A stretch of DNA of 52,415 nucleotides, the filler included, from Dimargaris cristalligena (Eukaryota): NCBI GenBank assembly GCA_003614675.1. It is 2 parts of 2 records of this genome, joined end to end, with 100 filler letters (N's around TTAATTAATTAA, not from the genome) between each part and the next. Parts side by side here need not be neighbours in the genome. Positions count along the whole stretch, not along the records: positions 26,370 to 52,415 come from ML002547.1; 1 more part is not named here. One strand, given 5' to 3'. Below are positions 1 through 52,415 of this stretch, one piece after another. A program made the position numbers and the translations under genes. The notes below the pieces were generated by a model, which worked only from the letters and a program-made list of their open reading frames with translations, was not told the DNA's origin and did not search any database. Every line of letters starts with the position of its first letter. The first letter of the stretch is position 1.

Positions 1-70
1 CCTTTCCCTTTTATTATCTATCTTTTCAAATAAAGTTCAGTTTTCAAGGATTTGAGTTCAGTTCTTTACA
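1..70 (-). mobile_element. Terminal fragment of an LTR-like element (begins TGTAAAG on the minus strand), inserted into the DIRS relic; the contig ends inside it
   Basis: 18-70 is the reverse complement of 52362-52414 (52/53 identical). The shared sequence starts at TG(TA) at both loci and the flanks are unrelated. Confidence 0.6.
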
Positions 71-18442: not shown

Positions 18443-19549
18443 GGGTTGCATTTGATATCGAAAGAAGGTACAACAGTATCTAGTTCGTCAAAGTCATAAT
18501 TTGACAGTATTTTATCCATTGGACATGGCAACAGGGAAATAGAGACATATCACACTATTTGAACTCCGTCTGGATTCCTCGGATTAAGTCACACCTGTCC
18601 GTTTAAAGGTAGCGTGTGTTCTAATTAAATTTCATCAAACTATTTATAAGATAATATCAGACTGTAATTATATGCATAGGTGAGTAAATTGCAGTTTGTG
18701 TTTTACGCCGTAGGTTTTTAATGGATGAGGTACATCAATGTGCGGGCTTACAGTGCCAAATAACAACACCATTAGCCTAATACTAGCCCCATTGGCCTAT
18801 TTAAAAGCAGACCTTTAAATAAGGAAATAGTCGGCATTTTAATTAAAGGAATAGGGGAATAGTTCTTGCGGATTTTCAATATAGCTCAGAGGTGTCTACT
18901 TGGCATACCTAAATATCGCTTTGAGGGTCTGGCTTTAGGGTACCCTTACGGCTAATATTAAAACCTGCATCCCCCAACTAGCGGTGCTCACCACTATACG
19001 TAGCCCCCCCAATTCACTGTATGATCGACCACGACCATATCGCTAAAGGCATGGTTATTTGGGTCGGGTACCCTCTCGCCCAGCTTTGTGAAGCACAGTG
19101 TTTTCTCGGCAGATTCCCTCTTCCTTCCAACCAACGGGCTCGCGGGGAGAAGGGAAGTCCGCTGCTGGGTTGGACCAGTTAACCTCGCCGCCATAGGCCA
19201 AACCCTCCCAGCTCCAACCTATCCTTCCGCTCATCCGCATTCTTTACTTCTACGTTTTCCTCCCTTCTTTCCCCATTGTATAGTCAGTGCCCGTATTTCC
19301 CTAGTTACAGTGCCCACTATCGGCATCTTCGTAATTCCTTCCGCTTTAGTACTCATAGCAAGCTCCAGTCCTTTCTGTCCAGCACGTAAATGCACTCCTA
19401 TTTCACTGCCCACCACCCAACACCGCCTTTTTTTATTTTGTTATCTCCTCAGTTTCCCGCCCACCGCCAGGCCATTGTAGCTAGCCCGCGCCACCGCTTC
19501 CATACCTCCCTCGTTCCTGCGGTCGTCGACCTTACTCAAGACTAGGAGA

Positions 19550-21991
19550 ATGTCCAATGTCTTTCACAATGCCGAAGCCCAAAAGTACCTCGTCACAAAA
19601 CTGCCCCATACCGCGTTCAATGCCACCGATTTAGCCCAGTATGCGGGGGTTATCCCCGTCACCGAAAGTGGTGAAGGCGGCATATTTTTCTGGCTAATGT
19701 ACAACACCACCCTGATCCCGGATATCCGGGCCCCTCATAATCCGCACAAGAAACTCGTCGTTTGGTTTAACGGGGGACCTGGGTGTACCAGCTTGGACGG
19801 GGTGTTCCTAGAGAATGGCCCTTACCAGTTTACCGGTACCCCTGACAATATTCAAATCGTCCCCCGTGATTGGAGTTTCACCCAGCAGGCGGTTATGCTC
19901 TACGTGGACCAGCCCCTGGGTACGGGCTTCTCGTATGCGCCCGAAGAGGAGTACAGCACCCATTATGCCGACCTGACCTACCGGGTCTTCCGATTCCTGA
20001 CGGGGTTCTACGCGTTATTCCCCGAACTCGATCCTTTTGATATCTACTTGGCGGGCGAAAGTCAGGCCGGCGTGTACATCCCCTACATCGCCCAGGATAT
20101 GCTCCGGCGGTCCGACGCCAAGGTGGATGGTCATACGTTTGCCCTTAAAGGTCTTATGATCGGTAATGGCTGGCTAGACCCCCTGCCGCAGTACCGGGCC
20201 GTCCTGGATATGGCCCGGGCCCAGAACCTTCACCCACCCGCCGCGGAGGCCGCTATCCAGTCCCACCTCGACACTTGCGTCAGTGACTACTCACACAGCC
20301 CCCCGCGGATAATCAGTCACCAGTGCGAGGCCTACATCAACGAATTCATCAAACTGGCGGCCCCTGAACCAGGCAAATGCTATAATAATTTCGACTACCG
20401 GAAAGTTGACACGTACCCGGAGTGCGGCATGAATTGGCCGCCCCAAATCCACACCTTCACCGCCTATTTCCGCCTCCCGGCAGTGTGGAAAGCCCTCCAC
20501 GTCGATGGTCGGACTTGGTCCGATTGGTCCGAGTGTAATAACGCCGTGGGGACCCGCCTGGAAAATAGCCCCGATCGGCCCAGCATCGAAATCCTACCGA
20601 ATCTGCTAACCCGGTTGCCCGTTCTTCTAGTCCACGGTGACAAGGATCTGCTGTGTAACTATATGGGGGCCGAAAAGATGATTTCCCAATTGACCTGGGG
20701 CGGCCAGCAGGGGTTCATGCAAGGGGGCCTCCAGACTTGGCAGATTGATAGTGCCGACGTTGGTCTGTACCAATCCGAACGAAATCTCATATACGCTCGG
20801 CTTTTCGATGCTAGCCACATGGCAGGTGTAGATAAGCCCCTACCCATGTTCGACCTCCTTGTGCGGCTCACCGGAACGGATGTATCAACGCTTTCCTACA
20901 ATTCCATAGTTTTACCCGAGGTAAGCCGACTTCTCCCCCATCCCTTCTTTTTTTGTCGGGGGTTACCGCAGTAGCAGTCACATTGATTGAGACGTGGGTG
21001 GATTGGCCTCCGTCGGTATTTTTGCGGATTTTCTAATTTTTGTTAAGCCCTTCATCGCGTTTAATGGAGGGACGGTTATTGAATTGGGCATAGCTATTGC
21101 ATTGCTGAAGAGGAGTCATATTCACGACTCTCCTATTCAAGGAGGGCTCTCAAGGATATAATGGCTAATACCACCTCTGGTTTGTACGATCCACCTTAAA
21201 TATCGGGCCTATAGGTTCTTGACGTGAGTGGTCCTGTTACTCCCTCGTTGGCCCGAGGCACTCGCTTTGTGTAAGTATTTCAAATTTGTATCACAGCGAT
21301 GCACTGCCTGCTTTATTCCCCTCTCCTCCATGCTCTCCAACAAATACCACCTAGACTAACCACACCCACCTATTCGCTCCAACCCTCTGGTGTCCATACA
21401 TCTCTAGCCTGGGCAGTCTTATTGTCACCTGTATTATCCTTTTCGCATTCGCCTACGCCTTTATCCGGAAGGCCCGATACAAGCGGAAACACCCGGAAGA
21501 CTACCAGGAATACCACCAGATCGTTAACCCGATCGGCCTTAATGGGCTACCCCGTCTCAGTCAGGATATAGCTGAAGAGGAAATTCATATGACCCAACTT
21601 GGTATTTTTGGTCTTCCTATAACCGAGGAGCCTCTAAGTGACCATTACAACAAACCCACAGTTCGTATTTTTGATTACCAGAGGTAGGCTAGGAACCGTC
21701 GAACTCTTTAATGGTGGAACTGGGATTTTTTACTGTCCACCCCCGCATTAGCAGGCTGAGCCTGAATGGCGGATGTACATACCGTAGCCCCAGGGTATCT
21801 AACTGATTGTGTTTATTATCCACATGTGTAACCACTCCCCTTGCTCGATTCGTGGCTACGCTTCCAGTGATGGGTCGGGCGATGATCGCTCCGCACGTCG
21901 ACCCCTCCGCCCGGCAAACAAGCCCGCACGGGCCAAGTCGAAGCAGCCACCCAAGTCCAAGAAGGCGCGTGGTAAACGACCTGACATATGA
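19550..21991 (+). CDS. KEX1: Kex1-like serine carboxypeptidase (S10) with a C-terminal TM helix; exons approx. 19550-20920, 21215-21270, 21408-21683, 21868-21991
   Basis: WFNGGPGCTSLDG, VDQPLGTGFS, GESQAG, GDKDLLCN, ASHM; ECGMNWP motif; TM segment LGSLIVTCIILFAFAYAFI followed by RKAR. Confidence 0.85.
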
Positions 21992-23083: not shown

Positions 23084-24086
23084 GGTTAGAGAGTGAGATG
23101 TATGGATTAGGTATAAAGGAAAAGTGGGAGGGGGATGAGGGACTTGAAGGGAATCGCAGCCGCACAATGGAAAAAAGGATACACCGTCTGTTAGTGAAAT
23201 TCCGAATGAAAAGACTCAAGAAAATCAGGATTAGATGCAGGAAGGAGAAGTGAGCGTGGGTCTTCCGCTGCGGGGCGGTTCAAAGTGAGGTCAATAACCC
23301 TCTTGGGCAGCTAGCCACTGACTAGCGGAGGTTCTTCCAGGTGCCGACTGGTGCACCTACAGCTAGAAGATGAAGGTGATGAATATCACTCCCATTCATC
23401 AATTATCCCCGCACTAGAGTCCTCTCTGAAGGCTAGTCTAACACTACCCTTTAGTATTTTGGGTATGGTGCTAGAGGCATTGAATTTATTCCAAGGCTTA
23501 ATTCGACTATAAGTGAACCCGGCTGAGCACCATTAACCTGGGCGTATATTTTGAAAGAGTTGCCTAATCACCACCACAAATATCCGTAGCCCGATATATA
23601 AACCCAAGCCAAAGAATGGTGGGCCACAGGACTCGGAAGGCCAATAGGGCCAATCACGTGAAGCTCTACCAACTCCATCTGGGGGAAGGGCGCACATTGA
23701 CTTCTCTTGGCTTTGCTCTTCACTTACTTAATGCCAACTTTCCCATTATACTACAGCAAAAGTGGGCTGAGGAAGAGGTGGAGGAGTGGGGAGTTCAGCC
23801 TAATTGTATATGTGCATATATGTAACAGTTTCTACTATGCGGTATTACGAAGGCTTGAATGGAGTGGATGGGCAAGGAAGTGAACAGGCGGAACCTACGT
23901 AGATGAGCTTCATTCCTCCCTCTGCATCTCTTTAACTATATACTAATACTATAAGGTTCGCGTTTTTTTTTATTAACGCCGAGACCTTCATGGCCCCACC
24001 TCATTCTCCCGGCTAATAGTTTTCCTTTGGTTTGACCGCTGCCCATCTAAGTCTGGTCCGAACGTTTCGCCACCCCCTCCCCGCAT

Positions 24087-26269
24087 ATGCCGATGGAGGA
24101 GAAAACGCCCACCCCGCCCGCTTCGCCCCCGGCTTCCCCATCCGCTGGCTCTACCGCAGGCGATGGCCCATGTCCCGACCCCGTTTCGCCGCCAAGGGAG
24201 GATGGCCCATGTCCCGACCCCGTTTCGTCGCCAAGGGAGGATGGCCCATGTCCCGAACCTGTTTCGCCGCCAAGGGGGGATGACCCGGCCCCTCCTCTCC
24301 CATCGGACACTATTTCGGACAGCAACAATAACGACGACAACAATAATAACAACAGCAGTAGTGGCGAGGGTAGTAGCAGTAGCGAGAGTAGTAGTAAAAG
24401 CAGCAGTAAAGCGACCTCCTCAGCCCCCAGTGACTCGGGCTGGTTCTCCCTATGGGACCACATTCAAGCCGAGCTGGACCTCAAAGAGTACGATAGTCTC
24501 ATGGACGTACAGCACGAGCGGGTCAGTAATTTTCTGCAAATTCCACGCCAGGTGGAAAAATTGATGATATTCGGGGTCTTTGTTGCCCTGGACGCCTTCC
24601 TCTACCTATTCACTATATTGCCCGCCCGGATTGCCCTCACTCTATGGACCATTGCCCGGCGCCCCTTTCTGCCTTCCGACCACATTCTCCGCCAACGCCG
24701 TGCCTGGCTATTCCCCAGTCAGCGGTGTGACCTCATGAAGGGATTCCTTATCCTGGTATGCTGCCTCATGCTACAGTCATTCGACTCGGCCCAGCTCTAC
24801 CATATGGTCCGGGGCCAGTCCACCATTAAGGTCTACGTCATTTTCAACATGCTCGAAGTCTTCGATCGGCTGTGCTCTGCATTCGGCCGGGACATTTTGG
24901 ATACTCTGTTATCCGAGATTTCGTTTTATCCCCAGGCATGGGAACAACAGCCCGATCAGCAGTGGCGACGGTTCGGTCAAATTGTGCAGCACACCGTTAT
25001 CGCCATAATCTATATGTTTATTCACGCCATGGTCCTCTTCTACTACCTGGTTACCCTCAATGTCACCATTAACTCCTACGACTATTCCCTGCTTACGCTC
25101 CTACTAAGTAACCAGTTCGCCGAAATCAAATCCAATGTTTTTAAGCGGTACGAAAAGGAAAACCTGTTCCAAATTTGCTGTTCCGATATCGTCGAGCGGT
25201 TCCAGATTGGTATTATGCTCACCATCATTACTCTGAAAAATTGGATTGAATTGTCATCAGGAACCATCCAGGCCGATACCGGCTTCTCCCAAATTGCGCT
25301 CCCCTTTTCCTTTTCGCCCGTACCCCTTCCTTGGTCCTGGGAGTGGCAAACCCTGGTGGTGGGCCTATGGACCTGGCTGCGGTACATGGTGTTCGACTGG
25401 TGGTTCGACTGCCTGGTCCTCCTGCTCGACTGCCTGCCTATCCCACTCGGTCCGTTTAGCACTGGGGTGCCGTCCAACCCCCACCGGGCCAGTCAAGCCA
25501 TCGCTCTATTCATGCGGAACCTATTTGATTTCCGACAAGCATGGGCCATTCTTACCCGAGTCTTAACCCCGGCCCTGCTGGTCTACTGCTCCGAAATGTT
25601 GGCCGATTGGACCAAACACGCCTTTATCACCAAATTCAACCAGGTGCGGCCCGAGGTCTACGGTCGCTACACCGATATTCTCTGCCGCGACTTAGTCGGT
25701 ATCGACCAGAATAACCCCAGCCCGACGCGGTCATCAGCAGCCGAACCTTCGTCTCGCCCCCCGGCTAATCAACACCGGATACGGATCGAGCGCTCCTTGG
25801 CTGTCGGTAACCGAATGGGCCTGGCCACCCTTCCCCTAGCCTGCATTGTAATCCACAACTCCATCCATATTCTCCGGATGGTGTTCCAGTCAGACCCTAG
25901 TAACAATAATGGTCTAGGGGACGAACTCGACCACGTAACCCCTCCACTGGACGGGGGGTTAGCGTCACCCCTCTTTTATGAATGGGTTGGTCTGGATTTG
26001 CACCACCACAGCTACCTATTCTCCCCCCTTTTAGCCGTCGTGGAATACGGGGGCTGGGTGCTCTTGGCCATGATGGCCTACGCCTGTTTGGTGTTTATTA
26101 AGCTACTCCTCGGCATTAACCTGGTTCAGTATGCCTGGAACCGGTACGAAGGCCTCCAGAATCGGCAGCGGGAAGAGGAGGAGAGGACCCGCACCTCCAT
26201 CTCCCGGGCCGAGGCTCGGCGGGAATGGTCCCAACTGCAAAAAGACGTGAGCCATTCCGACAAAAAATT
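24087..26269 (+). CDS. TAPT1: TAPT1/Emp65 (DUF747) ER membrane protein, 3' end truncated at the contig end
   Basis: ERVSNFLQIP..VEKLMIFG, YHMVRGQSTIKVYVIFNMLEVFDRLC, LLLSNQFAEIKSNVFK, SDIVERFQ, DWTKHAFITKFN. Confidence 0.92.
24162..24278 (+). repeat. Coding tandem repeat, 39 bp x3 (DGPCPDPVSPPRE)
   Basis: Near-identical units start at 24162, 24201 and 24240 (gatggcccatgtcccga...ccaaggg). Confidence 0.95.
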
Positions 26270-26369
26270 NNNNNNNNNNNNNNNNNNNNNNNNNNNNNNN
26301 NNNNNNNNNNNNNTTAATTAATTAANNNNNNNNNNNNNNNNNNNNNNNNNNNNNNNNNNNNNNNNNNNN
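26270..26369. other. Artificial contig-joining spacer
   Basis: 44 N + TTAATTAATTAA (stops in all six frames) + 44 N = exactly 100 nt. Confidence 0.95.
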
Positions 26370-28104
26370 ATAGATTCTATGATGGGACAAATTGAGGGGG
26401 GAAAAGTCCCAAGGAGCCATGGGAACAAGGCAAACCGACTGCTGTGGAAGAGGGTGTATGGCTTGCACGAATAATACGTACACACAAGGCTGCCCATATA
26501 TAAAAGGGAGTGAGGCAGTGAGGAAATCGTCGCATCACGTGATCAGTTATTGTATTTATCAGCGATTGGTTTCTATACTCCTTGGCCTTCTGGATATTTC
26601 AAAGGTGCTCCAAAATAGTAAGGGGACCGAAGAACCAATTCATCCTGCTGTTAATTCAGGCTGATTAAGAATAATGATGCTACCCAAAAAGTAGCACCCC
26701 ATTGCAGTCGAAATCTATATCTACTGGGATTATATAGTTATATGTGGACCTCTCACCTAAGGAGATGATATATGCAAGTAAAAACCGACATTGACCAATG
26801 CCCCCCATTGACTATTTTCCGAAATAACAAATCATGGATAAAGCGGCCATTAACTATATAGAATATATATATCCTCGTCAGGGCTGGCACCCTAACCATA
26901 TACCACCTACAGGCTCACAGACACCAGTGTTACGGACATTGAGTTGCAATAGTACCCTGCTATTTTCTCAGAACATAAGCTGGCAGATATCGGATATTCC
27001 ATCTAATCCACTTGCTTGATCACGATACCCACGACGTCTCTCGTTTAGCAAAATGCCGGTGAAGAATGTACCCATATACGGTCAACAATATTCAGGATAG
27101 TCTTATACAGCTTAGTTTAGATTTCCAACAGCCAGGGTATTGAACAACGAATAGTAATACAATTCATCCCAAGTCTCAGTGTCACCACTACAGTGTATAC
27201 CATGTGAATATAAATTAATGGGTTTTGTTTGACAGCTGTGGTTTCTGGAAATGCCTAAGATTTGGGCGCAAGGGGATAAACAATTCATGTATGTATCTTT
27301 TCAATAATAGCAGTACGCTGTCTATCATACCCGGCACGCGTTCTTAGACATAGAGGAGCCGCATACCAGCACTACCATATCGTACATGATAATTATCTCG
27401 TCGGGATAGCGTACTTAATCAACCCGAATCAGGATCCGTGGAAGGTATTCGTATGTTATCTACATTCGGTGCCCTGTATCAAATATAAAGCTTCATATGC
27501 GCAATAACCACGCCACTAAATTAGTTGAACTTCACTCTCCGTTGTAGATGCCATTAAAGCAATAGGAATTTCTAAAAATATTACCTTAACTATATACCGC
27601 ATAGTTGGATATTAATGCATGGTCGACATTCGAATTAGACAACTTTAATACCCGGCGTTCATTGTATAATGTAGATGCTAACTTCAATATATGTGTAATT
27701 CTGCTTAGCTGTACGAGGGTTTAATTGATGCGTGTATGGTAAAATAGACGGGTGATGAACTTTCAACCAAAAATTCTTGCCCCATCCAGATGATTTTTTT
27801 ATTTATATAGCCTAGTTGAGCCTCTTCTAAATACAAATAATGAATAGATTCGGATCGGAAGGTAAGATCTTATTGAGGTAGATGTTTTAACTATGCTTCG
27901 TATCTGATTTTCCGTTGTTTTATTTGATTACAGTGAGCCCTCACGCCAAATATTATGACTAGGATCGACGAGTTAGTTAAGACACGGAGATGAATAAGAC
28001 AGGTATACTGAGCCATCTGGAAACCTAATAAAAAATGCTTCAATTGAATTTGTAGGTATATTAGAGGCATCAAGTCTGAAAACAATAATGCCCAAGAGAA
28101 CGTC

Positions 28105-29800
28105 AACTATATAACCAAAGGTGGCTTTATTAGAAATCGTAAATCAGAAATTGCAATGTGGTATCAAAGGGTACGGGAAATTCGGTAGTATAAATGCCTG
28201 TAAAATTGCCATCCGAATTATTCACTGGATTCGGTTTTGTCACAGCATTCCCAGAAACAAGGATTAAAGGTAGTGCAAAAGCATGAGAAACAGTCGCTGA
28301 TACCCTTCCCAATCTCATTAAGAGCAGCGGACATACAAAAGCATGGGCAGCAAAGTAGGTTTTGGACAGGATTATCTGATGGACAGCATGCAGCACAGTC
28401 ATCGGATGCACCAGCATCATCATCGTCATCATCGCGTCGGAAAAGTTTGGGGGCCTGGTTCTCGGTTGACGGGGCGATAATGGTTTTATCCACTTGGGGA
28501 GTCAGGGTTTCTCGCAGATATTCGGCAAACCCAGCCAAGTTGGGAGTAGTCTCTCCGGAATTGGCCTGTGCGCCAGTCAGGGAGAGGTGGTCCCGCACAA
28601 ACGACTTCATGGCAGCCTTGAGGGTTTCGCAGTCAGTATTGGCCGTTTTGACGATTTCCAGGATTTCTTGAACTTCGGGCATACGGTTCTCGCAGGACAC
28701 CTTGGGGCAGGCGCTGGCGACCGGGAAGAGCGGCTGAATACCAGGAGCGGCGCCTAAACTAGCGGAAAATACCGCGGGTACAGCCAGGGCCAAGAGGCCA
28801 ACAGCGAACAACTGCATGGCAGGCAAAGTGATATTATTGGTAACGGGGTTAGACGTGGGGTCAAAAAAGAACCGGTGAGAGGGGAAGAGAAAAGTGAATT
28901 GAAGCAACTCAATAATCGCGTGAGTAGTGGAGAAAGGATTCGTATTTTGCAAATGATATTTTCCGGTAGCAGGTATAGAGGCCATTTATATATCTCTGTG
29001 AGGAACCAAATGGGGAGTGTAGTTTCAATAACCACTCGCCTGGTCCTATCTCCCTACTTTTCAATCTATTGAAGCATTGCAATCAATACCGGGGACTAGT
29101 TGATGGCTTCGATGGTAGAGTAATACCCAGAAAATAGTGTAACAGCTCGTCAAAAAAGAGCTTGGAAGTCCATTCTCCCTAATAAACCAAGCCAACACAA
29201 TCGGTATCTTTCCCCCTTTCCCGATGGCACCACTGCTCTAGCTGGGGTTTCAAAAAAAATCATAACATGACCATAGTAATTTGGTAATTACCTACCGCGC
29301 CTTGTCCGTCGACTGTCCAAGAGGTTCCCCAACCAGCCAGTCCATAAAGTAAACAGCCTCCAGGGAAATGTATAAAGACTGTTCTCAGCTGTTGGACCAT
29401 CCCGTTTTGTTATCACAATTCTGCCCGAAATGATGCACAAGTCCAACCGAGAGGGTGAATTGGGGAAAACGGCCAGGCTCCTTCAATTATTTGAGCACGC
29501 GCCTAGTTCGCCGCTTTAGGCCTTTCTTTATATTTCTCAAATGGTGGAACTACTTGCCGATACTAGCCAGCCATAGAGTGTGTTGGCCAACCCCTGTCTG
29601 GACTCCTTTTCATATCACAGTGCCTTCCAGTTAGTAGTAACACAATTTTCGGACCGCATGGCTTTTGTTAGAGCCAGCATGTGTCCATGTTGGACAAAAA
29701 TCAAATATGCAGACGAGCATATTGTATTCGGCCTGGGTCTTATTATGATGAGTTTCCCTCCATTTGCCGCGAGAACTATTTATCTCTAGTCCACATCAGC
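28105..29800. repeat. Tandem segmental duplication unit A (paralogous to ~33085-34785), covering the gene and ~1 kb of upstream sequence
   Basis: Long colinear identity, e.g. ccatagtaatttggtaattacctaccgcgc vs ccatagtaattcggtaattacttaccgcgc; weaker similarity resumes at ~31115-31440 vs ~34787-35080. Confidence 0.9.
28218..28817 (-). CDS. Secreted prepro-protein with a Cys-rich C-terminal peptide (copy A)
   Basis: Signal peptide MQLFAVGLLALAVPAVFSA; pro-region ends KLFRR; acidic tail with 13 Cys; TATA box at 28985-28992. Confidence 0.85.
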   Translation of the reverse strand: MQLFAVGLLALAVPAVFSASLGAAPGIQPLFPVASACPKVSCENRMPEVQEILEIVKTANTDCETLKAAMKSFVRDHLSLTGAQANSGETTPNLAGFAEYLRETLTPQVDKTIIAPSTENQAPKLFRRDDDDDDAGASDDCAACCPSDNPVQNLLCCPCFCMSAALNEIGKGISDCFSCFCTTFNPCFWECCDKTESSE

Positions 29801-31114
29801 AGCTTTTCCCGCCCAGTTTTTTTTGGGGGGGGGTATGGACAATTTTAGACACCCCGACCACTACCATTACCACTTTGTTATCGCATATATAGAATGGTAG
29901 GAATATTAAAACCTCAGCCAGTTTGGTCTTCTATATTCTATTCCGTTTTTTTAAAAAAAAATCCATTAAAATCAGATACTATTGCTGGGATAAACAATGT
30001 AATATATTGTCATTATGAAACCGCGAGGGGAAGTTACTCCACTGAAATGGAACCCTGTTAAGTTATAGAGGCCGTTGATGCCAATGGATCCTCGCAAGTA
30101 TCCATGTGAACCTTTCCAAACCAGACCTATTCAGTTTTCCGTCCAGCATATGTATACCCTTGGATTTGGGACGTAAATGATGTATGCTGAGGTATGTTTA
30201 ATAGCAGTTATATTAATATCCACCATATTCGGATACCTTTAAGTCTCTTTCAGTAATAGCCATTCACCATTAAATGTAAAGATTTTGGCAGTTTGGTAGT
30301 CAAATAAACCTGGCTTCTTAGGTTCTAGACAATAATTAATTCAGTAGCACCAGGACCTAGGATGGTTTAGCATATTTCCATTAGATGGAGTTGGGCTGGG
30401 CCTGGACTTGGTGATTGACTCAATCCAACTATCCACAGTAGATTAAAACGGGAAAGATAGGAGGGATGACAATATCATTGTTTTTAGCAAAGATACAGTG
30501 CTGTTGCCTGGGTTTACCACTCTTAGTCCATTAAGAGTCCCAAGGATAGGCTTCTGATGGTAGGCGGGGCATAGACTTAGCCAAGTGGGCTACTAGTATC
30601 AGGTATGGGGCACAGTACTAACCAATAAAGGCCTTAGGCAATCAGTTATGCAAGGGACATGCAGTGGACACACTTATGGGTTAGTATAAGGGGGTAAGCA
30701 TATATAGAGATAATTAAGGTAAACTAGGGGGTAGGAATAAGCTAAGGAATCTAACTGGTATGGCAAAGTGAAGTGTCCCCTTAATTACTACAGGTATAAA
30801 TTATTATTATTTGACTATTATATTTATATACAAGGTATGAAGTGGCTTTTTAGTCTGGTATAACCAGTTTTTTCCCTTCCCTTTTAACCCATTCCTTCCA
30901 TATAAATTTTTCCTTTAGTCTTATTTATATTTCTATTGGTAGATGCATGCTATCCCTATGATTGGATATGGGTAAAATTCAAACTAGCTGTATAAGGTTT
31001 TACATAATATATGTATGGGTAAATATATGTGAGAATAACTTTTAGCCAGTAGTATTGGCCTCATCTAATGGATTTTTCATTATACAGCCTAAATGAACTT
31101 CTCCCATATGTATA
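29800..31114. mobile_element. ~1.3-kb insertion in duplicate A that is absent from duplicate B; largely CpG-depleted, probable TE relic
   Basis: The A/B alignment breaks after tctagtccacat (~29797) and resumes at tgtagtgccgtgag (~31115). About 2 CpG in 30235-31120; ends in the repeat shared with 1841-1984. Confidence 0.65.
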
Positions 31115-31744
31115 TGTAGTGCCGTGAGAAGGTTGGCCAAAAGCCTTTACCATCCGGCTATCAATTTATCCGCCGATTCTTATGTTGATTTAACGATTAT
31201 CAACAAATTACAATGCTTATGACGGCTTTCTCTTATCTGATTCTAACGATTGCAACTGATATGACAAATTTCATGAGAAATAGACCATGCCTTTTGGGAA
31301 GTTAATCCCTGTTTTGTTATTTGTATTATCATGTTAACGGCCATACTTTATGATGAAATTATGATGAAATTCAACCCATTAATGTTATTTGAAATTATTT
31401 ATAATGATCGATTTGCAACCTCTGTTCGGAGAGCCCTCTTCCTGCAACAGGAAAACAATACTTTGTTCATAATTCCTATTCTCTTCACGATTACAATAAA
31501 TAAATAAATAAAAATAATAACCTATTATCAATTTTCTTTACTCGAAATACTTAACACTTGTAAACCTCTCCCTTCAATGTCACGCCTCCCAACTCGTTCC
31601 TCTGGACCTAGCGTCCCACCTTCGTCTGGCCCGGGCACACCACCGTCCACGCCCCAGCGTTCTGCACTTGAACAGGGGACGGCCATCTGTAATCCGAATC
31701 CTAGCGGTGGATTTGAAGACCCCGATGCCAACACACATACACAT

Positions 31745-33085
31745 GCTTGATTACTAGTGGTTAGTTGGTTTTATTCCTATCCTTTCTTTAATTAGTTTAC
31801 TATGTGAATTCTCACTTTCCCTATAATTGGTTATGCAGGTTCACTATAGTCTTATTAGTTTTAACTAATCTCTATCCTATACAGAGAATGGCTTGGCACT
31901 CTTTGCTGTAGAGTAAAAAGTCTTAGCATTTTTTGAGGATAATATGTACTATTAATGCAGGTAATCAGGCCATGCATGCAGTCAATCAATATACTCATGC
32001 AAATGATCAGTATATGCATTAGTGTCCATTTTCATATATAAGGGAAACTTATTTCCCTCTTTTTTTTTCTTTGTGTCAAATTTTGGAGGTCAATTTCTTT
32101 GTATCAATTTTTATGTATCTTTTCTTTTATAATAAAAACTATCTTTATTACTACTCTGGTTATTGGGATTTTATACTTCAAGTTATGGTTACCAAGGACT
32201 GACCTCTTGAGCTTCCAAATAAGTATTTATTATATTGGATTATTTTAGTTAAAACCTTTATACAGTTAGTTTTATTTATATATATTTTTTATTTAAGTGA
32301 CAAACTAGTTCACCTGGAGAAGCCACCCTGCCCTTTTGATAGTATTTTATTGTTCATTTTAGTAGCTTGATACTACCACACTGTGACACCAGTCCCAAGG
32401 GGGCCCAATTATATATATGTGGGGACAGTTCCAGAGGGAGGTCCCAAGGGGAGATGCTACTAGACTACAGTATAGATAAATAGACCAACTGGATGGGCCT
32501 TGTATCTGGAAGACTCTCATGGGAACCAGAAGGGTCTTTGGATCAGCAGGTTGAGTGCTTTGTGTGAAGTATTGGGGCCAGAAGGAGAATGATTATATAA
32601 TTAATGATGATCCCATAGTACCAGGGGTGACCATGGGAGGGTTAATATGGTGCTATAAGGCCTAATAAGGGCAGACAATTGTTATGTCTAGATTAAGCCA
32701 GATTAGAAGGGCTGACAAGTACAGTAATGAGTAGAATGAAATAAAATAATAATAATGTATTCAGGGAATTACAGCAACTACTGTTTTTGTTCATTTATAA
32801 AAGAAGGAATTGATAAGGTTGGTTACAATAAAAGATATCTATTCAAAATAAGTTTATATATTTATTGGAAATACTAAGAACTTATCAATAAAACTGGTTG
32901 AAAGAGATGATAGCAGTTAGTTAATAGTAGGTACCTACAGGTGATTAGTTATACTTAATAGTGTAGCCAGAAGGGGTCATTTTAAGAGTGTAAAATGAGT
33001 AGTTACAGGATGGCTAAATAAACTAGCATAATTGTTCAGAAATTGGCTATAATAATAGACCCATTAGGACATATTTTCCAACAAA
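31745..33085. mobile_element. CpG-free AT-rich TE relic between the duplicated genes; possible chromodomain remnant at ~32450-32570 (+)
   Basis: No CpG seen from ~31725 to 33220; NWMGLVSGRLSWEPEGSL resembles the chromodomain W-x-G...WEP motif. Confidence 0.5.
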
Positions 33086-33197
33086 TTATAGGTCCAAAGG
33101 TTGCTTTATTGGAAAATGTGAATAAAAAAATTGGAATATGATACCATAGAATAAGGTAAATTCAATAGTATAAATGTTTGAAAAATTGATAGCCATT

Positions 33198-33803
33198 TTA
33201 TTCACTGGGTTCAATGGATTCGGTGCTGTCAGGCTCTTCACATATGCAACAATTAAAATTATTGCAGAAAGATGATAAACATTCCCCTAAACCATTCAAA
33301 CACTGATAAATCATATAGGACATACAGAGGCATGGGAAGCAAAGGCAGTTTTCGACAGGATCGCCTAATGTGCAGCACGGTGCACATTCCTCAGGTACAC
33401 TAGCACTATCATTATCATCACGTCGGAAAAGTTTGGAGGCCCGATTCTCAGTTGACGGGGCGATAATGGTGGTATCCACTTGGGGAATCAAGGTTCCACG
33501 CAGATAGTCGGCAAAACCGGCCAAGTTGGGAGTAGTCTCTCCAACATTGGCGTGTGCGCCAGTCAGGGAGAGGTGGTCCCGCACAAACAACTTCATGGAA
33601 GCCTTGAAGGTTTCGCAGTCAGTATTGGCCGTTTTGACGATTTCCAGGATTTCTTGAACTTCGGGCATACGGTTCTCGCAGGACACCTTGGGGCAGGCGC
33701 TGGCGACCGGGAAGAGCGGCTGAATACCAGGAGCGGCACCCACACTAGCGGAAAGTACCATGGGTACCGCCAGGGCCAGGATGCCAACGGTGAACAGCTT
33801 CAT
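33198..33803 (-). CDS. Secreted prepro-protein with a Cys-rich C-terminal peptide (copy B)
   Basis: Signal peptide MKLFTVGILALAVPMVLSA; pro-region nearly identical to copy A, ending KLFRR; divergent tail with 13 Cys; TATA box at 33971-33978. Confidence 0.85.
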   Translation of the reverse strand: MKLFTVGILALAVPMVLSASVGAAPGIQPLFPVASACPKVSCENRMPEVQEILEIVKTANTDCETFKASMKLFVRDHLSLTGAHANVGETTPNLAGFADYLRGTLIPQVDTTIIAPSTENRASKLFRRDDNDSASVPEECAPCCTLGDPVENCLCFPCLCMSYMIYQCLNGLGECLSSFCNNFNCCICEEPDSTESIEPSE

Positions 33804-36049
33804 GGCAGGCAAAGTGATATTATTGGTAACGGGGTTAGACGTGGGGTCAAAAAAGAACCGGTGAGGGTGGAAGACGGAAGTGAGTTGAAGCAACTCAGTA
33901 ATCGGGTAAGTGGTGAAGAACGTATTGTAATTGTGCGAATGACATTCTCTGGTAGCGGGCATAGAGGTCATTTATATACATCTATAGGAAACTAAATGGG
34001 GGTGTAGTTTCAATAACCACCCACTTCACCTCATCTCCCTACTTTTCCGTCTATTGAAGCAGTGTATTTCATAACAGTGGTTAGCTGATGACCCCGATTG
34101 GAGTATTATCCCCCAAAAAATGTGTAACAACCCTCCTAAAAAGGGCTCGGAAGTTGATTCATATGAATTGCCGAACCAGCACATTTGATCCCTTCACTCC
34201 ATTATCGATGGATCCACTGTACTAGCTGGGCTATCCGATCGGAACTAGATACTTACATAGCCATAGTAATTCGGTAATTACTTACCGCGCTTTGTCCGTC
34301 GACTGCCCAAGAGTTTCCCCAACCGATCAATCCATAGCGGAAATAGTTTATAGGAAGTGGATAATTACTGGCCTCAGTTGTTGGATCATCCCATGATGGC
34401 ATCACAAGTTCACCTTAAGCGATACACATGTCCGACTGAGGGGGTGAATTGGGGGATACGGCTAGGTTTCTTCGATTATCAGAACATGCGGCTAGCTCAC
34501 CGCATTAAGCCTTTCTTAACATTTTTTAAAAGGCGGGAGTACTTGCCGGTACTAGCCAGCCAGAGAGGGTGTTGGTCAACTCCTGTCCGAACTCCTTTTC
34601 ATACCACAATGTCTTCCAACAAGTAGTAACACAATTTCTTGACCATATGGGATTTGTTAGGGCCAGCATGTGCCTTCGTAGGACAAAAAAATTAATACGG
34701 ATGAGAATATTGTATCCGGTATGGACTTTATTATGAAAAACTTCCCCCAGTTTGTTGCGAGAACGATATCTCTAGTTCACATTAGTGTATTGCCATGAGG
34801 CGGGCACCAATTGGCTTCGAATATCCGGCTATCAGTTCTGCTGATAGTCATGATGACAATCGATGGATATCGATTAATTGGATGTTGACTAATTTTTTTC
34901 AAGGAAATGTCGATTCTGGTGGATATTTACAAGCCATTGGTTAGTCTCTGCCCCGATTTTTGTTTTCAATACCGCTCCAATCATCATATACTACTAATTT
35001 TATAATGTCTTTTTGAATTGTAGAATGTAATTCAATTATTTACAAAAATTATTTTGGAATTTCTATTTGAGAGCCCTCTTAGAGACAGATAGTGACGATC
35101 TGCGTATATCTGTTCTTTCATTTTTTGATTCATCATCCTACTTCAATGATTGTTAATCCAACTAAATATTTTACAAATCGGCACATTCCTATTGTTTACG
35201 AATTATTTCTATAGTTCGATTGCTATCCTGTCTCACCTACCCCATATTTCTTCTTTTCCAGCCAACGTCGTTCTCTCTGCTGGCCAGGCTACGCCCTCGT
35301 CGATGCCAGTTTGCCCTGTACCAGAGCCCGCGAATCCCAATCCCATCCCCCAACTTGGCGCCATAGGAAATGATCCAGGCGGCCACACGTAGGCTGCCCC
35401 TACCGCCAAGTTTTATTAAGTTTGTGGGTGTGGGTACATACACGTTTGGCCATCCCAACCACTGGTGGCACTACTTTTTAATTGTATTGTTCATGGTGGC
35501 GGAGAGGTTCAAACCTCGGCCAGTTTGGTCATCTACAACTAGTCCAAAAAATAGTTGTGTTGCAGTTAAAGAGGCATTTTCGCTGAGTCAGTCGATATAA
35601 TATATCACCGCACCTGGTACAGCAGTAGGAAGGTAGTGCCCCAAAGCAAGGCCCTGTTAAGCTGTAGGATCCGCTGATTCAGTTTACCACGCAGTAGATT
35701 TAACACCACAGATTTTGGGCACTAATGGAGGTGCACTAAGCAAGATTCAATAGTGGTTTAATAATTGTCCACCACATCCGAATCCTACGAAGGCCTCTCC
35801 CAGCAATGCGATTTTACTATTCTATGAGAAGATATCAGTGTTAGTGAAGGAAAAAATAGTCAGAATTGCCTAGGTTCAAGATTACTGTCGATTGCACTAA
35901 ATAAATTGAGCCAAACTCATTTTTATAAATACATGAGTAGGTCAAGGCATTTTTTTATTGGTATTCTTTGTTCTGTCTGTTGGTTGTCCGCTTAACTTTC
36001 GGCCGATGCCCCATCCTCCTCAATCCTTCAGGTCCGCCATTAATCCTCC

Positions 36050-36470: not shown

Positions 36471-38482
36471 TTTTTCTTCCCACTACTGTCTCATATCAAT
36501 TAAGACTAAGTCCCCATCGGTGTAGATATCCGACCCAAGCGATTATTCCACTGACACGGGCAGTCAAGAGTATTGCGTCCGGCTCAAATAGCCAAATCCT
36601 CCGGGTTACTTAACGCCAGGAAACTTTATTCGGACCTTAAATGGGTAGGTTATTGGTTACTATTACCAGCTGCATGCGTGAGTTCCAACACTTTTGTAAT
36701 GACCAACCGCAGCTGAAATTTGGACATGTATTGATGATATGGGAGGGGTTCGGCCTGGCTATATTGCTAAAATCCCGTTTAATGAGACAGGCTAGCAATA
36801 AATATACTACATAGCTTCCCATCGGAAATTCTATTTAGGTCGACCTAAAAATAAAAATGGCAACACTTGGAATGGTCTCCTCGTAAAGTCTCCATCGTGT
36901 GTACCCTTTAAAAGGTAGCTGATTCATTATATTGCCCTGAATATGGCTCGGCACTTGCGTGTTCCTTTTAGCCTACACATTATTTACACTTCATCCCTTC
37001 TTCTGGTAATGGGGGGGGGGTATCTACTGGAATTCAGAAGACTATAATAATATCCAAGTATCATTTATTATGCGTAGAATTATCAGCCTACTTAGGTAAA
37101 CTAAACAAGGGTTGTCGGAACGATACAATTCCTTGGAAATATAGGAATGGGTAGTCCTTAATTGTTAGCCAAAGAGCAAGGGAACCATCGACGGGATGGG
37201 AATATGCAAAGTTGGAAGTGGCATTGTCGTTGAGTATACGATATTGTATTGTAAGTAATTTTTAGAGGGGTCGGTATTAGAATATTGGAGTTATTATTAA
37301 TCACCTCTAACGGAGTTCATTTGACCAAGGCTTACTCCAGAGCGTAAGTAGTTGACACAATCCAGCTTAGTTTCCGCAAGACTCCATTAGGGAAAATTAA
37401 CCCGACGGGCAAGCAAACTTCTAATAAATCAGGAAAGGTGCCCAACCTGCTGACTAGGTCGTCTAACCCAAATCCCATCCTATTTGGGACCTTACCGAAA
37501 TTTCCGAATTCCCATTTTATCACAACAATTCCCCCATCTTATTTATTTACTCTCACGGAATATGTTTAATAACAAAACGTAAAAATGATGACGTTCCCAG
37601 GGGTTACTTATTCCATGTCTGGTGCTCAGCCATAGACCATTCCATATTCTGCTAGATTGAGTCCAAGCCTAGTCGCCACAAAAAAATAGTAAACGGTATA
37701 TATACAAATTACAGCTGTAGTGTTATGAGATTTATGCCAGAGGGCGAGGTAATCAGGACAGAGGTCTTGATTTCTGTTATGCCGGATCTAGTAAGTGGAA
37801 TTCGGAAACCTACAGCTCGGAAGCGCCATCGAGAAAGAGACAATGGTGAAGATTAACCGGCGATACACTGAATTGGCCTCAAGGCTGGATCAGTTGATGA
37901 AAAGGTAAGGAAGGGCATTTAAAAAGACCGGCCCAGTCAGGCGGACCATAGACTTCACATCATTAAATAAATATTGGGCTGCCGATAAAAATATTGTTCC
38001 GTAGGGTAAAGTAGCGGATTCCCAAGCGTAAACATAGGGTTGGTGAATATTCCCCTATGGTAGCAAGCTATGCCGCGTTTAACCATACTGTATTATCCAC
38101 TACCACCAAATTGGTCGTTGGGACTGTATAACCACATTGGACGTCGATTTATCATGGCCTGGAACTAATGCGTCGGAATTGAACTATTTGTCTGCATTTA
38201 GTTATTTCCATTCTGCAAGAAAACGCCGCCATCGTACATACTCGAGTTGGTCAACTCAGTCCACCGAACATAAACAACGCCATAGTATAAATACAGAAGG
38301 TGGCAAGCGCCCAATTTCCTTTATACATATACTACCACAGACTATCCCTACTTGCACGGTTTGAAGTCCACTTTTGTTAAATTATCACCATTATTTAGTT
38401 CGAGACTACACTTACTAGACTATCAGTTTAATTTAAATTTTGTATCGCCCCCCCTCCCACATTAAGTTTTCCTCACTACACT

Positions 38483-39508
38483 ATGTCTTTTCAACTCCTC
38501 TTACGCGATTTATTTACTATTGTCTTTAGTGGGGTTCTACTTATAAATATTTCTACCTGCGCGGTACTTTCCAATCCACACCCTGATTCGACGTTGCCTG
38601 CCAACATCTCCGATTATTTGCGAGTCTACGGTGGTCAGGCTGTTTCTGAGGGCTATCCCTTTTTGGCCCGTGTAGTATCACTTGGCCCTCAAAACACCCT
38701 CTGTTCCGGCAGTGTTCTGAATCAGCACTGGATTCTAACCGCTGCCCATTGCGTAACCCAATGCTCCCAACCATATGATTGGTACGGTGAGTGCAGGGTA
38801 AGCGACCCTGGGTTCACTTACGTCACGGTTGGCACTTCCGACCCACGTACCACCACTATCTTCAACGCCTCCCAAATTATCGTTCACCCCGACTACCATA
38901 CCGATCAAGCACCCGAGGCCGATATCGCAGTCATCCAGCTTCGGACCCCCCTCACGTATTCAAAAGAAGTCCAACCTATCAAAATCTACACCGGTCAGAT
39001 TGCTGATAATGCCGCTGCCCAAGTTATCGGTTGGGGCCAAATCGAAGAGGGCCAGTCACCCACTGCGTCAGCCCCCTACGAAGCGGATATACGGATGTCT
39101 AATGACCGCCAACTTTGTAATGTTGTTGAAGGCTTGAACTTCCAGAACTCGAATGGGCCTCTCATCTGTTCGGCCAAAGACAACTACAAAGGTCCGTGTT
39201 TGGGGGATTCCGGGGGTCCTCTTCTGGGGCGATACCAAGAGACGTGGGCTCAACTCGGAATTACCAGCTTCGGCACCAACCCAGGGACCAATATCACCTG
39301 TGATAGTCCCAACAAAACCTCCTATTTTACACACGTGGCCTATTTCCTGGATTTTGTACTCAATGCCACTAGGCTCGGCCACGATGAAATAGTATTAACC
39401 ACCAATGGTGTCGGTCGTCTGGTTGAAATGCAGTCAAGTGTAATATTTATCTCATTTTTCTTTTCCATCTTTACTGCCAATGTTTTGTTTACCAATGTAT
39501 TTCTATAG
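38483..39508 (+). CDS. Secreted S1A (trypsin-fold) serine protease with a hydrophobic C-terminal tail (possible GPI signal)
   Basis: Signal peptide; R|VYGG activation site; TAAHC, DIAVI, GDSGGP; tail SVIFISFFFSIFTANVLF; TATAAATA at 38286. Confidence 0.95.
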   Translation: MSFQLLLRDLFTIVFSGVLLINISTCAVLSNPHPDSTLPANISDYLRVYGGQAVSEGYPFLARVVSLGPQNTLCSGSVLNQHWILTAAHCVTQCSQPYDWYGECRVSDPGFTYVTVGTSDPRTTTIFNASQIIVHPDYHTDQAPEADIAVIQLRTPLTYSKEVQPIKIYTGQIADNAAAQVIGWGQIEEGQSPTASAPYEADIRMSNDRQLCNVVEGLNFQNSNGPLICSAKDNYKGPCLGDSGGPLLGRYQETWAQLGITSFGTNPGTNITCDSPNKTSYFTHVAYFLDFVLNATRLGHDEIVLTTNGVGRLVEMQSSVIFISFFFSIFTANVLFTNVFL

Positions 39509-52361: not shown

Positions 52362-52415
52362 TGTAAAGAACTGAAATCAAATCCTTGAAAACTGAACTTT
52401 ATTTGAAAAGATAGT
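52362..52415 (+). mobile_element. Start of an LTR-like element (TGTAAAGAAC...), same family as 1-70; the contig ends inside it
   Basis: 52/53 identity to the reverse complement of 18-70. Confidence 0.6.

What the first reader, a model, noticed from the sequence alone, without database searches (positions are those of the whole stretch)
28218..33803. Duplicated prepro-peptide genes: conserved pro-region, hypervariable 13-Cys peptide after LFRR
Seen: the two paralogs are almost identical up to KLFRR, then diverge sharply. A: DDDDDDAGASDDCAACCPSDNPVQNLLCCPCFCMS...CFSCFC...CFWECC; B: DDNDSASVPEECAPCCTLGDPVENCLCFPCLCMS...CCIC. Each tail keeps 13 Cys with partly shifted positions. Known: a conserved prepro region plus a dibasic site plus a variable Cys-rich mature peptide is typical of toxins and defensins under diversifying selection. 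Inference: an undescribed secreted toxin, effector or metal-binding peptide family. Gene conversion homogenising the 5' part is an alternative explanation.
Basis: partly seen in the sequence, partly recalled or inferred. Interest (0 to 1): 0.75.

Follow-up and report, generated by a model that had tools for sequence, protein, structure and literature searches.

The report
Duplicated secreted cysteine-rich protein genes
Two neighbouring copies of a gene for a small secreted, cysteine-rich protein known only from the fungus-parasitic fungus Dimargaris cristalligena look "conserved head, variable tail" mainly because recent gene conversion made their front halves alike, not because the tail is evolving unusually fast.

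Summary
Two minus-strand paralogs, A (28218-28817, 199 aa) and B (33198-33803, 201 aa), share a signal peptide, a ~105-aa head ending in LFRR, and an acidic tail with 13 Cys each (9 shared columns). The "hypervariable peptide under diversifying selection" reading is not supported. Tail dN/dS is 0.75 (bootstrap 0.37-1.58). Tail dN (0.38) is close to the neutral divergence of the duplicated non-coding flanks (K about 0.31).

The head is the outlier. Codons 25-80 have no synonymous difference, and a 65-nt stretch at the 5' end (62 nt of 5'UTR plus the ATG) is identical. Runs of 129 and 65 identical bases compare with a maximum of 60 in 5000 random placements. Another strain shows clustered differences in exactly that stretch.

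Among distant paralogs the tail (21-42% identity) is no more variable than the head (27-36%).

The genes belong to an unnamed family of at least 8 sequence-distinct members, found only in Dimargaris cristalligena. It has no Pfam, PDB or other match. L-[FYH]-R-R, a textbook Kex2 motif, is present in 7 of 7 members. The most likely reading is a lineage-specific, Kex2-processed secreted Cys-rich protein. Its function is untested, and public gene models wrongly splice out the tail.

The parts
28115..29796 (-). Duplicated block, copy A: promoter region, gene A and its 3' flank
   Evidence: Self-blastn pairs 28115-29796 with 33094-34782 at 78.8% identity over 1712 columns. The MAFFT alignment has 351 mismatches in 1673 aligned columns.
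33094..34782 (-). Duplicated block, copy B
28218..28817 (-). Gene A coding sequence (199 aa plus stop), no intron needed
   Evidence: Translation. Other paralog models start at the homologous MKL[FL].
33198..33803 (-). Gene B coding sequence (201 aa plus stop)
   Evidence: Translation. Public models P0004 and P0009 cover this gene but cut the tail.
28752..28817 (-). A signal peptide (codons 1-22, ending ...SASLG)
   Evidence: Mean Kyte-Doolittle hydropathy of residues 3-17 is 2.57. Small residues precede the likely cut. This is the best-conserved segment among distant paralogs, at 59-77% identity. No dedicated predictor was available.
33738..33803 (-). B signal peptide
   Evidence: Mean Kyte-Doolittle hydropathy 2.53. 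dS is 0.38 between A and B here.
28434..28751 (-). A head domain (codons 23-128): 3 Cys, predicted helices at residues 42-59, 63-77 and 94-108
   Evidence: Family alignment. AlphaFold2 secondary structure at low confidence, pLDDT 41-42.
33420..33737 (-). B head domain
28434..28445 (-). A L-F-R-R, a Kex2-type site (P4 Leu, P2 Arg, P1 Arg)
   Evidence: The motif is present in 7 of 7 family members. Motif definition read in passages of PMC8528282.
33420..33431 (-). B L-F-R-R site
28221..28433 (-). A acidic Cys-rich tail: 71 aa, 13 Cys, D+E 15, K+R 2, 6 aromatic residues
33201..33419 (-). B acidic Cys-rich tail: 73 aa, 13 Cys, D+E 14, K+R 0
28623..28751 (-). 129-nt run identical to B 33609-33737 (inferred gene-conversion tract core)
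   Evidence: The longest run in 5000 random placements of the mismatches was 60. There are 0 synonymous differences in codons 25-80.
28815..28879 (-). 65-nt run (62 nt of 5'UTR plus the ATG) identical to B 33801-33865 (second tract)
   Evidence: In run X5, 4 of the 14 differences in the A-locus contig fall here; binomial P = 0.0013.
28985..28992 (-). TATATAAA, 168 nt upstream of the A start codon. It overlaps the upstream ATG that public models use.
   Evidence: The B copy is at 33971-33978.
28126..28131 (-). AATAAA downstream of the A stop codon, in a conserved island
   Evidence: The B copy is at 33105-33110.
30464..32827 (.). High-copy repeat (transposon-like) separating the two copies
   Evidence: Summed contig depth is 10 to over 1000 times that of the flanks in runs X1, X2 and X5, with many joints and loose ends.

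Best explanation
A and B are tandem paralogs, 5 kb apart and separated by transposon-like repeats. They belong to a family of small secreted proteins found only in Dimargaris cristalligena.

Each precursor has four parts:
- a conserved signal peptide;
- a ~105-aa helical head with 3-5 Cys;
- an invariant L-[FYH]-R-R site that fits the Kex2 (kexin) preference;
- a strongly acidic, aromatic-rich tail with 9-13 Cys on a shared framework.

Most likely the precursor enters the secretory pathway and is cut after RR in the Golgi. The disulfide-knotted acidic tail would then be released, or stay linked to the head. The head would serve as a folding pro-domain or as a second product.

The striking contrast between A and B (head 90% identical, tail 46%) comes from recent, patchy gene conversion of the 5'UTR and head. 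The duplication itself is old (neutral K about 0.3). The tail has simply diverged at about the neutral rate while keeping its cysteines.

Shown: gene structure, family, motif conservation, conversion signature and dN/dS. Inferred: secretion, cleavage, disulfide bonding and any role in mycoparasitism.
For: Family:
- The only homologues are D. cristalligena hypothetical proteins from two assemblies.
- At least 8 sequence-distinct members: A, B, P0005, P0006, P0010, P0007/P0011, P0008, P0012/P0017.
- No Pfam hit.

Architecture:
- L-[FYH]-R-R in 7 of 7 members, inside an otherwise variable linker.
- The motif matches P1 Arg, P2 Lys/Arg, P4 Leu as described in PMC8528282 (passages).
- Signal segment: hydropathy 2.5 and 59-77% identity among distant paralogs.
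- The tail is coding: 13 in-frame Cys codons, 0 of 20000 shuffles reach that.
- The Cys framework is shared by 5 tails.

Gene conversion:
- Non-coding flanks K = 0.31 and 0.32. Tail dS 0.50, dN 0.38. Codons 25-80 dS = 0.
- Synonymous differences 0 of 38.8 sites against 14.4 of 39.3, Fisher P = 2.9e-5.
- Identical runs of 129 and 65 nt, against a maximum of 60 in 5000 randomisations.
- The 65-nt run is 62 nt of non-coding 5'UTR plus the ATG, so protein-level selection cannot explain it.
- Strain differences cluster in that run: 4 of 14, P = 0.0013.
- In the other assembly, B's signal peptide carries A-like residues (P0004 ...PAIFSASLG; window B ...PMVLSASVG; A ...PAVFSASLG).
- The P0006/P0010 pair is uniformly 96-97% identical in head and tail. 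Distant pairs show head 27-36% and tail 21-42%.
Against: - There is no RNA or protein evidence. No RNA run was listed. Transcription, the start codon, secretion and cleavage at RR are all inferred.
- Both public gene models of B remove part of the tail as an intron (P0004, P0009). A consensus-looking GTATGT lies inside the conserved C-M-S codons, so splicing of the tail's second half cannot be excluded.
- The head is large, helical and Cys-bearing, and it makes up 64% of the precursor. That is unlike typical short, disordered Kex2 pro-domains.
- Cys counts per part are odd in A and B (3 + 13). This could mean a head-tail disulfide rather than a free peptide.
- The signal-peptide stretch between the two identical runs is as diverged as the flanks (dS 0.38). 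The conversion must therefore be mosaic, or made of two events.
- Nucleotide-level constraint on the 5'UTR is not formally excluded.
- The structure models are unreliable (pLDDT 41-42).
Confidence: 0.6

Rival explanations
1. One reading: a conserved prepro region plus a hypervariable mature toxin or defensin-like peptide, driven by diversifying selection as in conotoxins.
For: - A against B: head 90% identical, tail 46%.
- Cysteines tend to be kept while other tail residues change: 9 of 13 Cys against 23 of 57 non-Cys identical, Fisher P = 0.07.
- The signal peptide is the most conserved part among distant paralogs.
- The organism is a mycoparasite (PMC6784888, passages).
Against: - Tail omega is 0.75 (0.37-1.58). 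Without the shared Cys codons it is 1.01 (0.54-2.09), indistinguishable from neutral.
- Tail dN of 0.38 is close to the non-coding K of 0.31.
- The head has dS = 0 over 56 codons and an identical 5'UTR, which selection on protein cannot produce.
- Distant paralogs show no excess tail divergence.
- The tail is strongly acidic (net about -13 to -14), unlike cationic defensins.
Confidence: 0.12
2. The protein is not cleaved. It is a two-domain secreted or cell-wall protein whose Cys-rich acidic tail binds something such as metal ions or a wall polymer. The RR is structural.
For: - Head and tail are equally conserved across the family.
- The head looks like a folded domain with conserved Cys.
- Odd Cys counts in each part (3 + 13) fit an inter-domain disulfide.
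- The tail has 18% Cys and 21% acidic residues, with CC, CxC and CPC motifs.
- Two other family members lie next to genes for small secreted proteins with two chitin-binding (PF00187) domains.
Against: - L-x-R-R matches the Kex2 preference exactly in 7 of 7 members, within a variable linker.
- Aromatic residues are abundant (5-7 per tail), unlike classical metallothioneins (recalled definition).
- No similarity to any known binding domain.
Confidence: 0.2
3. The Cys-rich tail, or its second half, is not part of the mature mRNA, as the public gene models imply. The real protein would be the head with a short C-terminus.
For: - P0004 removes B codons 136-197 as a GT..AG intron.
- P0009 uses the GTATGT inside the C-M-S codons and a 3-codon last exon.
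- P0007/P0011 has only a 15-aa tail in its model.
Against: - 13 in-frame Cys codons in each copy, against 1 and 4-6 out of frame. None of 20000 shuffles reaches 13.
- The frame is open in both copies at about 35% nucleotide divergence. The gaps between the two coding sequences are 3 nt and 9 nt, both multiples of three.
- Copy A has no AG at the acceptor that P0004 uses.
- The models of P0005, P0006 and P0010 keep the tail.
- The genome paper has no occurrence of 'transcriptom'. The other assembly was part of a low-coverage survey with RNA described for another species only. The models are therefore probably ab initio.
Confidence: 0.08

Closest known systems
Kex2-processed pro-domain (K2PP) fungal effectors such as SnTox3, SnTox5 and ToxA (PMC8528282; bioRxiv 10.1101/2021.02.26.433117; passages read)
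   Same: A signal peptide, then an N-terminal region ending in a Kex2 motif (P4 Leu, P2 Arg, P1 Arg), then a Cys-containing C-terminal part. They are small, intron-poor, lineage-restricted genes of a parasitic fungus. SnTox5 is even described with a TATA box about 170 bp upstream.
   Different: - No sequence similarity.
- The 'pro' part here is about 105 aa (64% of the precursor), helical, Cys-bearing and as conserved as the tail. K2PP pro-domains are short, disorder-prone and lie in the first half of the protein.
- The released part here is only 44-73 aa, extremely acidic, and 18-24% Cys.
- The host would be another fungus, not a plant.
- Cleavage is untested.
Conotoxin- or defensin-type precursor superfamilies (recalled general knowledge)
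   Same: A conserved signal sequence across paralogs, a pro-region, a basic cleavage site, and a Cys-framework peptide at the C-terminus.
   Different: - There is no excess divergence and no dN/dS above 1 in the peptide part.
- The head/tail contrast in A and B is due to gene conversion.
- The peptide is anionic.
Lineage-specific small secreted proteins of zygomycete fungi (PMC9391592; passages)
   Same: Under 300 aa, with a signal peptide and no Pfam domain, and restricted to close relatives. That paper reports that over two-thirds of shared SSP orthogroups lack Pfam similarity.
   Different: This particular family is not named there ('Dimargaris' has 0 occurrences in the main text; supplements were not read). 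It has a defined internal architecture with an invariant dibasic site.
Metallothioneins (recalled definition)
   Same: High Cys content with CC and CxC motifs, and small size.
   Different: It has a signal peptide, many aromatic residues and many acidic residues. No Pfam metallothionein hit.

Membership tests
K2PP (Kex2-processed pro-domain) effectors | N-terminal secretion signal | tested here: met
   Hydrophobic core with mean KD 2.5, and small residues before ...SAS-LG. The segment is conserved in all members. This rests on a rule of thumb; no SignalP-type predictor was available.
K2PP (Kex2-processed pro-domain) effectors | Kex2 motif (KR or RR, or LxxR) after the N-terminal region | tested here: met
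   L-[FYH]-R-R in 7 of 7 members. Motif as described in PMC8528282.
K2PP (Kex2-processed pro-domain) effectors | Pro-domain short, disorder-prone, within the first half of the protein | tested here: not met
   The site is at residue 128 of 199. The head is predicted to hold three helices, at low confidence. It has 3-5 conserved Cys.
K2PP (Kex2-processed pro-domain) effectors | Pro-domain absent from the secreted mature protein; effector activity on the host | not testable with these tools
   This needs secretome mass spectrometry and bioassays.
Hypervariable Cys-peptide superfamilies (conotoxin-like) | Mature region with dN/dS above 1, and far more divergent than the prepro region across the family | tested here: not met
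   Omega 0.75 (0.37-1.58). In distant pairs the head is 27-36% and the tail 21-42% identical.
Hypervariable Cys-peptide superfamilies (conotoxin-like) | Highly conserved signal sequence | tested here: met
   59-77% identity among distant paralogs, against 27-36% for the head.
Metallothionein | Cys-rich (about 15-30%) with CC and CxC motifs, few or no aromatic residues, cytosolic (definition recalled) | tested here: not met
   The Cys content fits (13 of 71). However, there are 5-7 aromatic residues per tail and a signal peptide is present. No Pfam hit. Metal binding itself was not tested.
Hydrophobin and other named fungal Cys-rich families in Pfam | Match to the family profile | tested here: not met
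   No Pfam family at E<=10 for the 2 window proteins, nor for 5 of the 6 family proteins or the 2 isolated A and B tails scanned. P0012 hits PF00187 only in its merged neighbour part.

The most novel reading that the evidence does not exclude
A Dimargaris-specific precursor family that Kex2 cuts to release a new kind of very acidic, aromatic- and Cys-rich knotted peptide (9-13 Cys in 44-73 aa). A haustorial mycoparasite would use it against its Mucorales host, as an anionic toxin or effector or as a metal scavenger. At some loci it is encoded beside secreted double chitin-binding lectins. The head would act as an unusually large, conserved intramolecular chaperone or as a second product.
Probability: 0.3. 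Interest if true: 0.55.

Novelty: new member of a known kind. Interest (0 to 1): 0.3.

Why it matters
Effectors of fungus-on-fungus parasites from early-diverging lineages are almost unstudied. This family is a concrete candidate with a clear, testable processing site, and it sits beside chitin-binding proteins at other loci.

There are two practical points. First, both public gene models for copy B cut the Cys-rich tail. No model of copy A turned up in the protein searches other than the window's own ORF. Secretome surveys based on those models would therefore miss or mis-describe the family. Second, the case is a clean warning. A "conserved pro-region, hypervariable peptide" pattern between two tandem paralogs can be produced by gene conversion alone, so it should be checked against flank divergence and dS before positive selection is claimed.

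Tried and rejected
- Pfam scans found nothing at E<=10. This covers A and B and, five of six further family proteins plus the two isolated tails. The sixth, P0012, hit only PF00187 in its merged neighbour part.
- The PDB sequence search with the family profile gave only chance hits: MS2 coat protein constructs with per-stretch E of 68-70, and a nucleoporin.
- The ESM Atlas gave no usable hit, for the whole protein or the tail.
- AlphaFold2 with 2 and with 7 sequences gave mean pLDDT 42.1 and 41.2. That is too low for a fold search, so none was run.
- No whole genome is held for the window. No genome-wide DNA search for further copies or for Kex2 was therefore possible, and the DNA of the other family loci could not be read.
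- No RNA holder was listed among the sequencing runs, so splicing and expression could not be examined.
- tblastn of the chitin-binding neighbours against the window found none.
- tblastn of the family found only A and B in the window.
- Earlier-findings look-ups returned nothing.
- A recalled resemblance of the tail's CC...CPC motif to PLAC8-type proteins was considered. It was dropped because Pfam gave no hit.
- A recalled resemblance to hydrophobins was dropped because the Cys pattern and Pfam do not fit.
- The upstream in-frame ATG used by public models (28985, 33971) was rejected as the start:
  - it lies inside TATATAAA;
  - the extension diverges at the neutral rate, 24 of 108 nt;
  - six other models start at the MKL[FL] signal peptide.
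- Literature searches for a description of this family found none: 'Dimargaris cristalligena' + 'secreted', 'Dimargaris' + 'cysteine-rich', and 'Zoopagomycota' + 'small secreted proteins' + 'mycoparasit'. The supplements of those papers were not read and might list the proteins in bulk tables.
Full report
**What is there**

Window 28218-33803 holds two minus-strand genes. The long ORFs 28218-28985 and 33198-33971 are 71% identical over 255 aa. Read from the second in-frame ATG, they give protein A (28218-28817, 199 aa) and protein B (33198-33803, 201 aa).

I take that ATG as the start for three reasons:
- The upstream ATG lies inside a conserved TATATAAA (28985-28992 and 33971-33978).
- The 108 nt of ORF extension furthest upstream (28878-28985) diverge like non-coding DNA, at 24 of 108 nt.
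- Six models of other family members begin at the homologous MKL[FL].

A conserved AATAAA follows each stop codon (28126-28131 and 33105-33110).

The genes sit in a duplicated block of about 1.7 kb: 28115-29796 against 33094-34782, 78.8% identical. A stretch between the two copies (30464-32827) has summed contig depth 10 to over 1000 times that of the flanks in three DNA runs. That marks a high-copy, transposon-like repeat.

The rest of the window carries ordinary eukaryotic genes: Nop14, a REV1-like polymerase, DUF747/TAPT1, an S10 carboxypeptidase and a trypsin-like protease.

**Check of the observation**

The quoted sequences are right. Each tail after LFRR has 13 Cys, and 9 Cys columns are shared. 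Amino-acid identity is 95 of 106 in the head and 32 of 70 in the tail.

The tail is real coding sequence. It has 13 in-frame TGY codons, against 1 and 4-6 in the other forward frames. None of 20000 shuffles reaches 13, in either copy. The frame is open in both copies. The gaps between the two coding sequences are 3 nt and 9 nt.

The divergence does not begin with a step at RR. It follows a gradient: 100% identity at 28722-28633, 93-85% at 28602-28423, and 60-73% in the tail.

**Why head and tail differ between A and B**

- The duplicated non-coding flanks give the neutral distance: K = 0.31 upstream (203 of 805 nt) and 0.32 downstream (27 of 103 nt).
- The tail has dS 0.50 and dN 0.38, so omega is 0.75 (bootstrap 95% 0.37-1.58). 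Without the nine shared Cys codons omega is 1.01 (0.54-2.09). The tail has therefore diverged at about the neutral rate while keeping most cysteines. Positive selection is not shown.
- The head is the outlier. Codons 25-80 have 0 synonymous differences in 38.8 synonymous sites, against 14.4 of 39.3 in the tail (Fisher P = 2.9e-5).
- The longest identical runs are 129 nt (28623-28751) and 65 nt (28815-28879). The 65-nt run is 62 nt of 5'UTR plus the ATG. Placing the 351 mismatches at random over the 1673 aligned columns gave a median longest run of 26 and a maximum of 60 in 5000 trials.
- An almost wholly non-coding identical run, and dS = 0, cannot come from selection on the protein.
- The signal-peptide codons between the two runs are as diverged as the flanks (dS 0.38). 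The homogenised DNA is therefore mosaic.

Strain data point the same way. In run X5, the contig covering the A locus differs from the window at 14 places over 28742-30530. Four of these fall in the 65-nt run (binomial P = 0.0013). In the other public assembly, B's signal peptide carries A-like residues (P0004 ...PAIFSASLG; window B ...PMVLSASVG; A ...PAVFSASLG).

Assemblies of all three DNA runs that hold the locus (X1, X2, X5) also break at the homogenised segment (table 8). That is expected for a near-identical repeat.

I conclude that recent, patchy gene conversion explains the pattern.

**The family**

A HMMER scan of 1.84 billion representatives found 5 proteins. A profile search of 5.8 billion proteins added one more cluster. 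All named hits are hypothetical proteins of Dimargaris cristalligena from two assemblies.

With A and B this makes at least eight sequence-distinct members: A, B, P0005, P0006, P0010, P0007/P0011, P0008 (a fragment) and P0012/P0017.

All share the signal peptide, which reads MKLF...AASLG in most members. All share a head with conserved Cys, and L-[FYH]-R-R is present in 7 of 7 members that reach it. The full tails carry 9-13 Cys in 44-73 aa on a common framework. They are strongly acidic (A: D+E 15, K+R 2; B: 14 and 0) and have 5-7 aromatic residues each.

Among distant pairs, identity is 59-77% in the signal peptide, 27-36% in the head and 21-42% in the tail. The close pair P0006/P0010 is 96-97% identical in both head and tail. 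So the family as a whole does not show a conserved pro-region with a hypervariable peptide.

Other searches gave nothing: no Pfam family at E<=10, only chance PDB hits and no ESM Atlas lead. AlphaFold2 models are unreliable at pLDDT 41-42. They suggest three helices in the head and a helical hairpin in the tail. No fold search was run on them.

**Gene models**

Public models of B disagree with each other and with the sequence evidence:
- P0004 splices out codons 136-197 as a GT..AG intron.
- P0009 uses a GTATGT inside the conserved C-M-S codons and ends after three more codons.

Copy A lacks the acceptor AG that P0004 uses. The genome paper has no occurrence of 'transcriptom' (PMC6784888, term search). 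The second assembly comes from a survey in which RNA work is described for another species (PMC9866270, passages). The models are thus probably ab initio. No RNA run was available to settle this.

**How it most likely works**

The motif fits the Kex2 preference as described in PMC8528282: P1 Arg, P2 Lys or Arg, P3 free, P4 Leu or another aliphatic residue (passages). I therefore favour a secretory precursor that is cut after RR in the Golgi.

The closest known kind is the K2PP effectors, such as SnTox3, SnTox5 and ToxA. The differences are substantial:
- The part before the site is about 105 aa, helical, Cys-bearing and as conserved as the tail.
- The site lies at 64% of the precursor, not in the first half.
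- The C-terminal product is small and extremely acidic.

Odd Cys counts (3 in the head, 13 in the tail) leave room for a head-tail disulfide, or for no cleavage at all.

Function is open. D. cristalligena is one of the biotrophic mycoparasites sequenced in PMC6784888, so an effector or toxin aimed at the host fungus is plausible. The Cys- and acid-rich composition also makes metal binding plausible. Neither was tested.

One lead comes from other loci. Family members lie next to genes for small secreted proteins with two chitin-binding (PF00187) domains. H4R33_005793 is next to H4R33_005794. H4R33_002546 is merged with one such gene and is followed by H4R33_002547. The window holds no such gene.

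**Verdict**

The diversifying-selection interpretation is not supported, and the gene-conversion alternative is. The genes are new members of a known kind: lineage-specific small secreted Cys-rich proteins with a Kex2-type site. Such proteins are abundant in zygomycete genomes, and most lack Pfam domains (PMC9391592, passages).

My searches found no description of this family in print (supplements not read). Interest is moderate to low. The main value is a corrected gene model, a testable processing site in a mycoparasite, and a cautionary example for reading head/tail contrasts between tandem paralogs.

Noticed in passing
window 30464-32827 (also 1840-1983): A high-copy repeat lies between the two paralogs. 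Summed contig depth is 10 to over 1000 times the flanks in runs X1, X2 and X5, with many joints and loose ends. Parts of it are also held at low depth by a run labelled as another organism (X6). A 145-nt piece at 30966-31109 matches 1840-1983 in inverted orientation at 77% identity. No ORF of 130 aa or more lies in it, so it may be a non-autonomous or decayed transposon.
   Followed up: partly
window 18-70 and 52362-52414: The two ends of the window are inverted copies of each other: 53 nt, 98% identical. This could be a terminal inverted repeat or an assembly or amplification artefact.
   Followed up: no
other loci of D. cristalligena (proteins P0012, P0015, P0016, P0017, P0013, P0014): At two other loci, family members are immediately followed by genes for about 131-aa secreted proteins with two chitin-binding type-1 (PF00187) domains. 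Two public models (P0012, P0017) merge the two genes into one protein. This may be a recurrent gene pair.
   Followed up: partly
window 33198-33971 and 28218-28985: The two public models of gene B differ from each other, and both remove part of the Cys-rich tail. Both also start at an upstream ATG that lies inside the TATA box. No public model of gene A turned up in the searches apart from the window's own ORF.
   Followed up: yes
window 28331-28336 and 33320-33325: A consensus-like splice donor, GTATGT, sits inside the conserved Cys-Met-Ser codons of both tails (codons 161 and 160, phase 1). P0005 also has C-M-S at this place. It is not known whether this reflects a protein motif or an alternative splice site.
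   Followed up: partly
window 44537-45234: Tandem direct repeats of about 190 nt, 82-89% identical, lie inside a 322-aa ORF (44509-45477, minus strand) with no Pfam hit.
   Followed up: no
window 24162-24286: A short tandem repeat with a 39-nt period, 91-93% identical, lies near the 5' end of the DUF747/TAPT1-like ORF 24051-26321.
   Followed up: no
window 19481-20974 and 38432-39508: A serine carboxypeptidase (Peptidase_S10, E = 1.4e-78) and a trypsin-like protease (E = 8.8e-30) flank the gene-poor, AT-richer region (GC 38-45%) that holds the paralogs. S10 enzymes include the Kex1 type, which trims basic residues after Kex2 cleavage (recalled). No link was tested.
   Followed up: no
window 28100-28494 in run X5: The other strain's contig shows 9 gap letters and 2 substitutions against the window, across the A tail and its 3' flank (table 8). 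The exact place was not shown. If it lies inside the coding part, it would be an in-frame length change, for instance in the Asp run.
   Followed up: no
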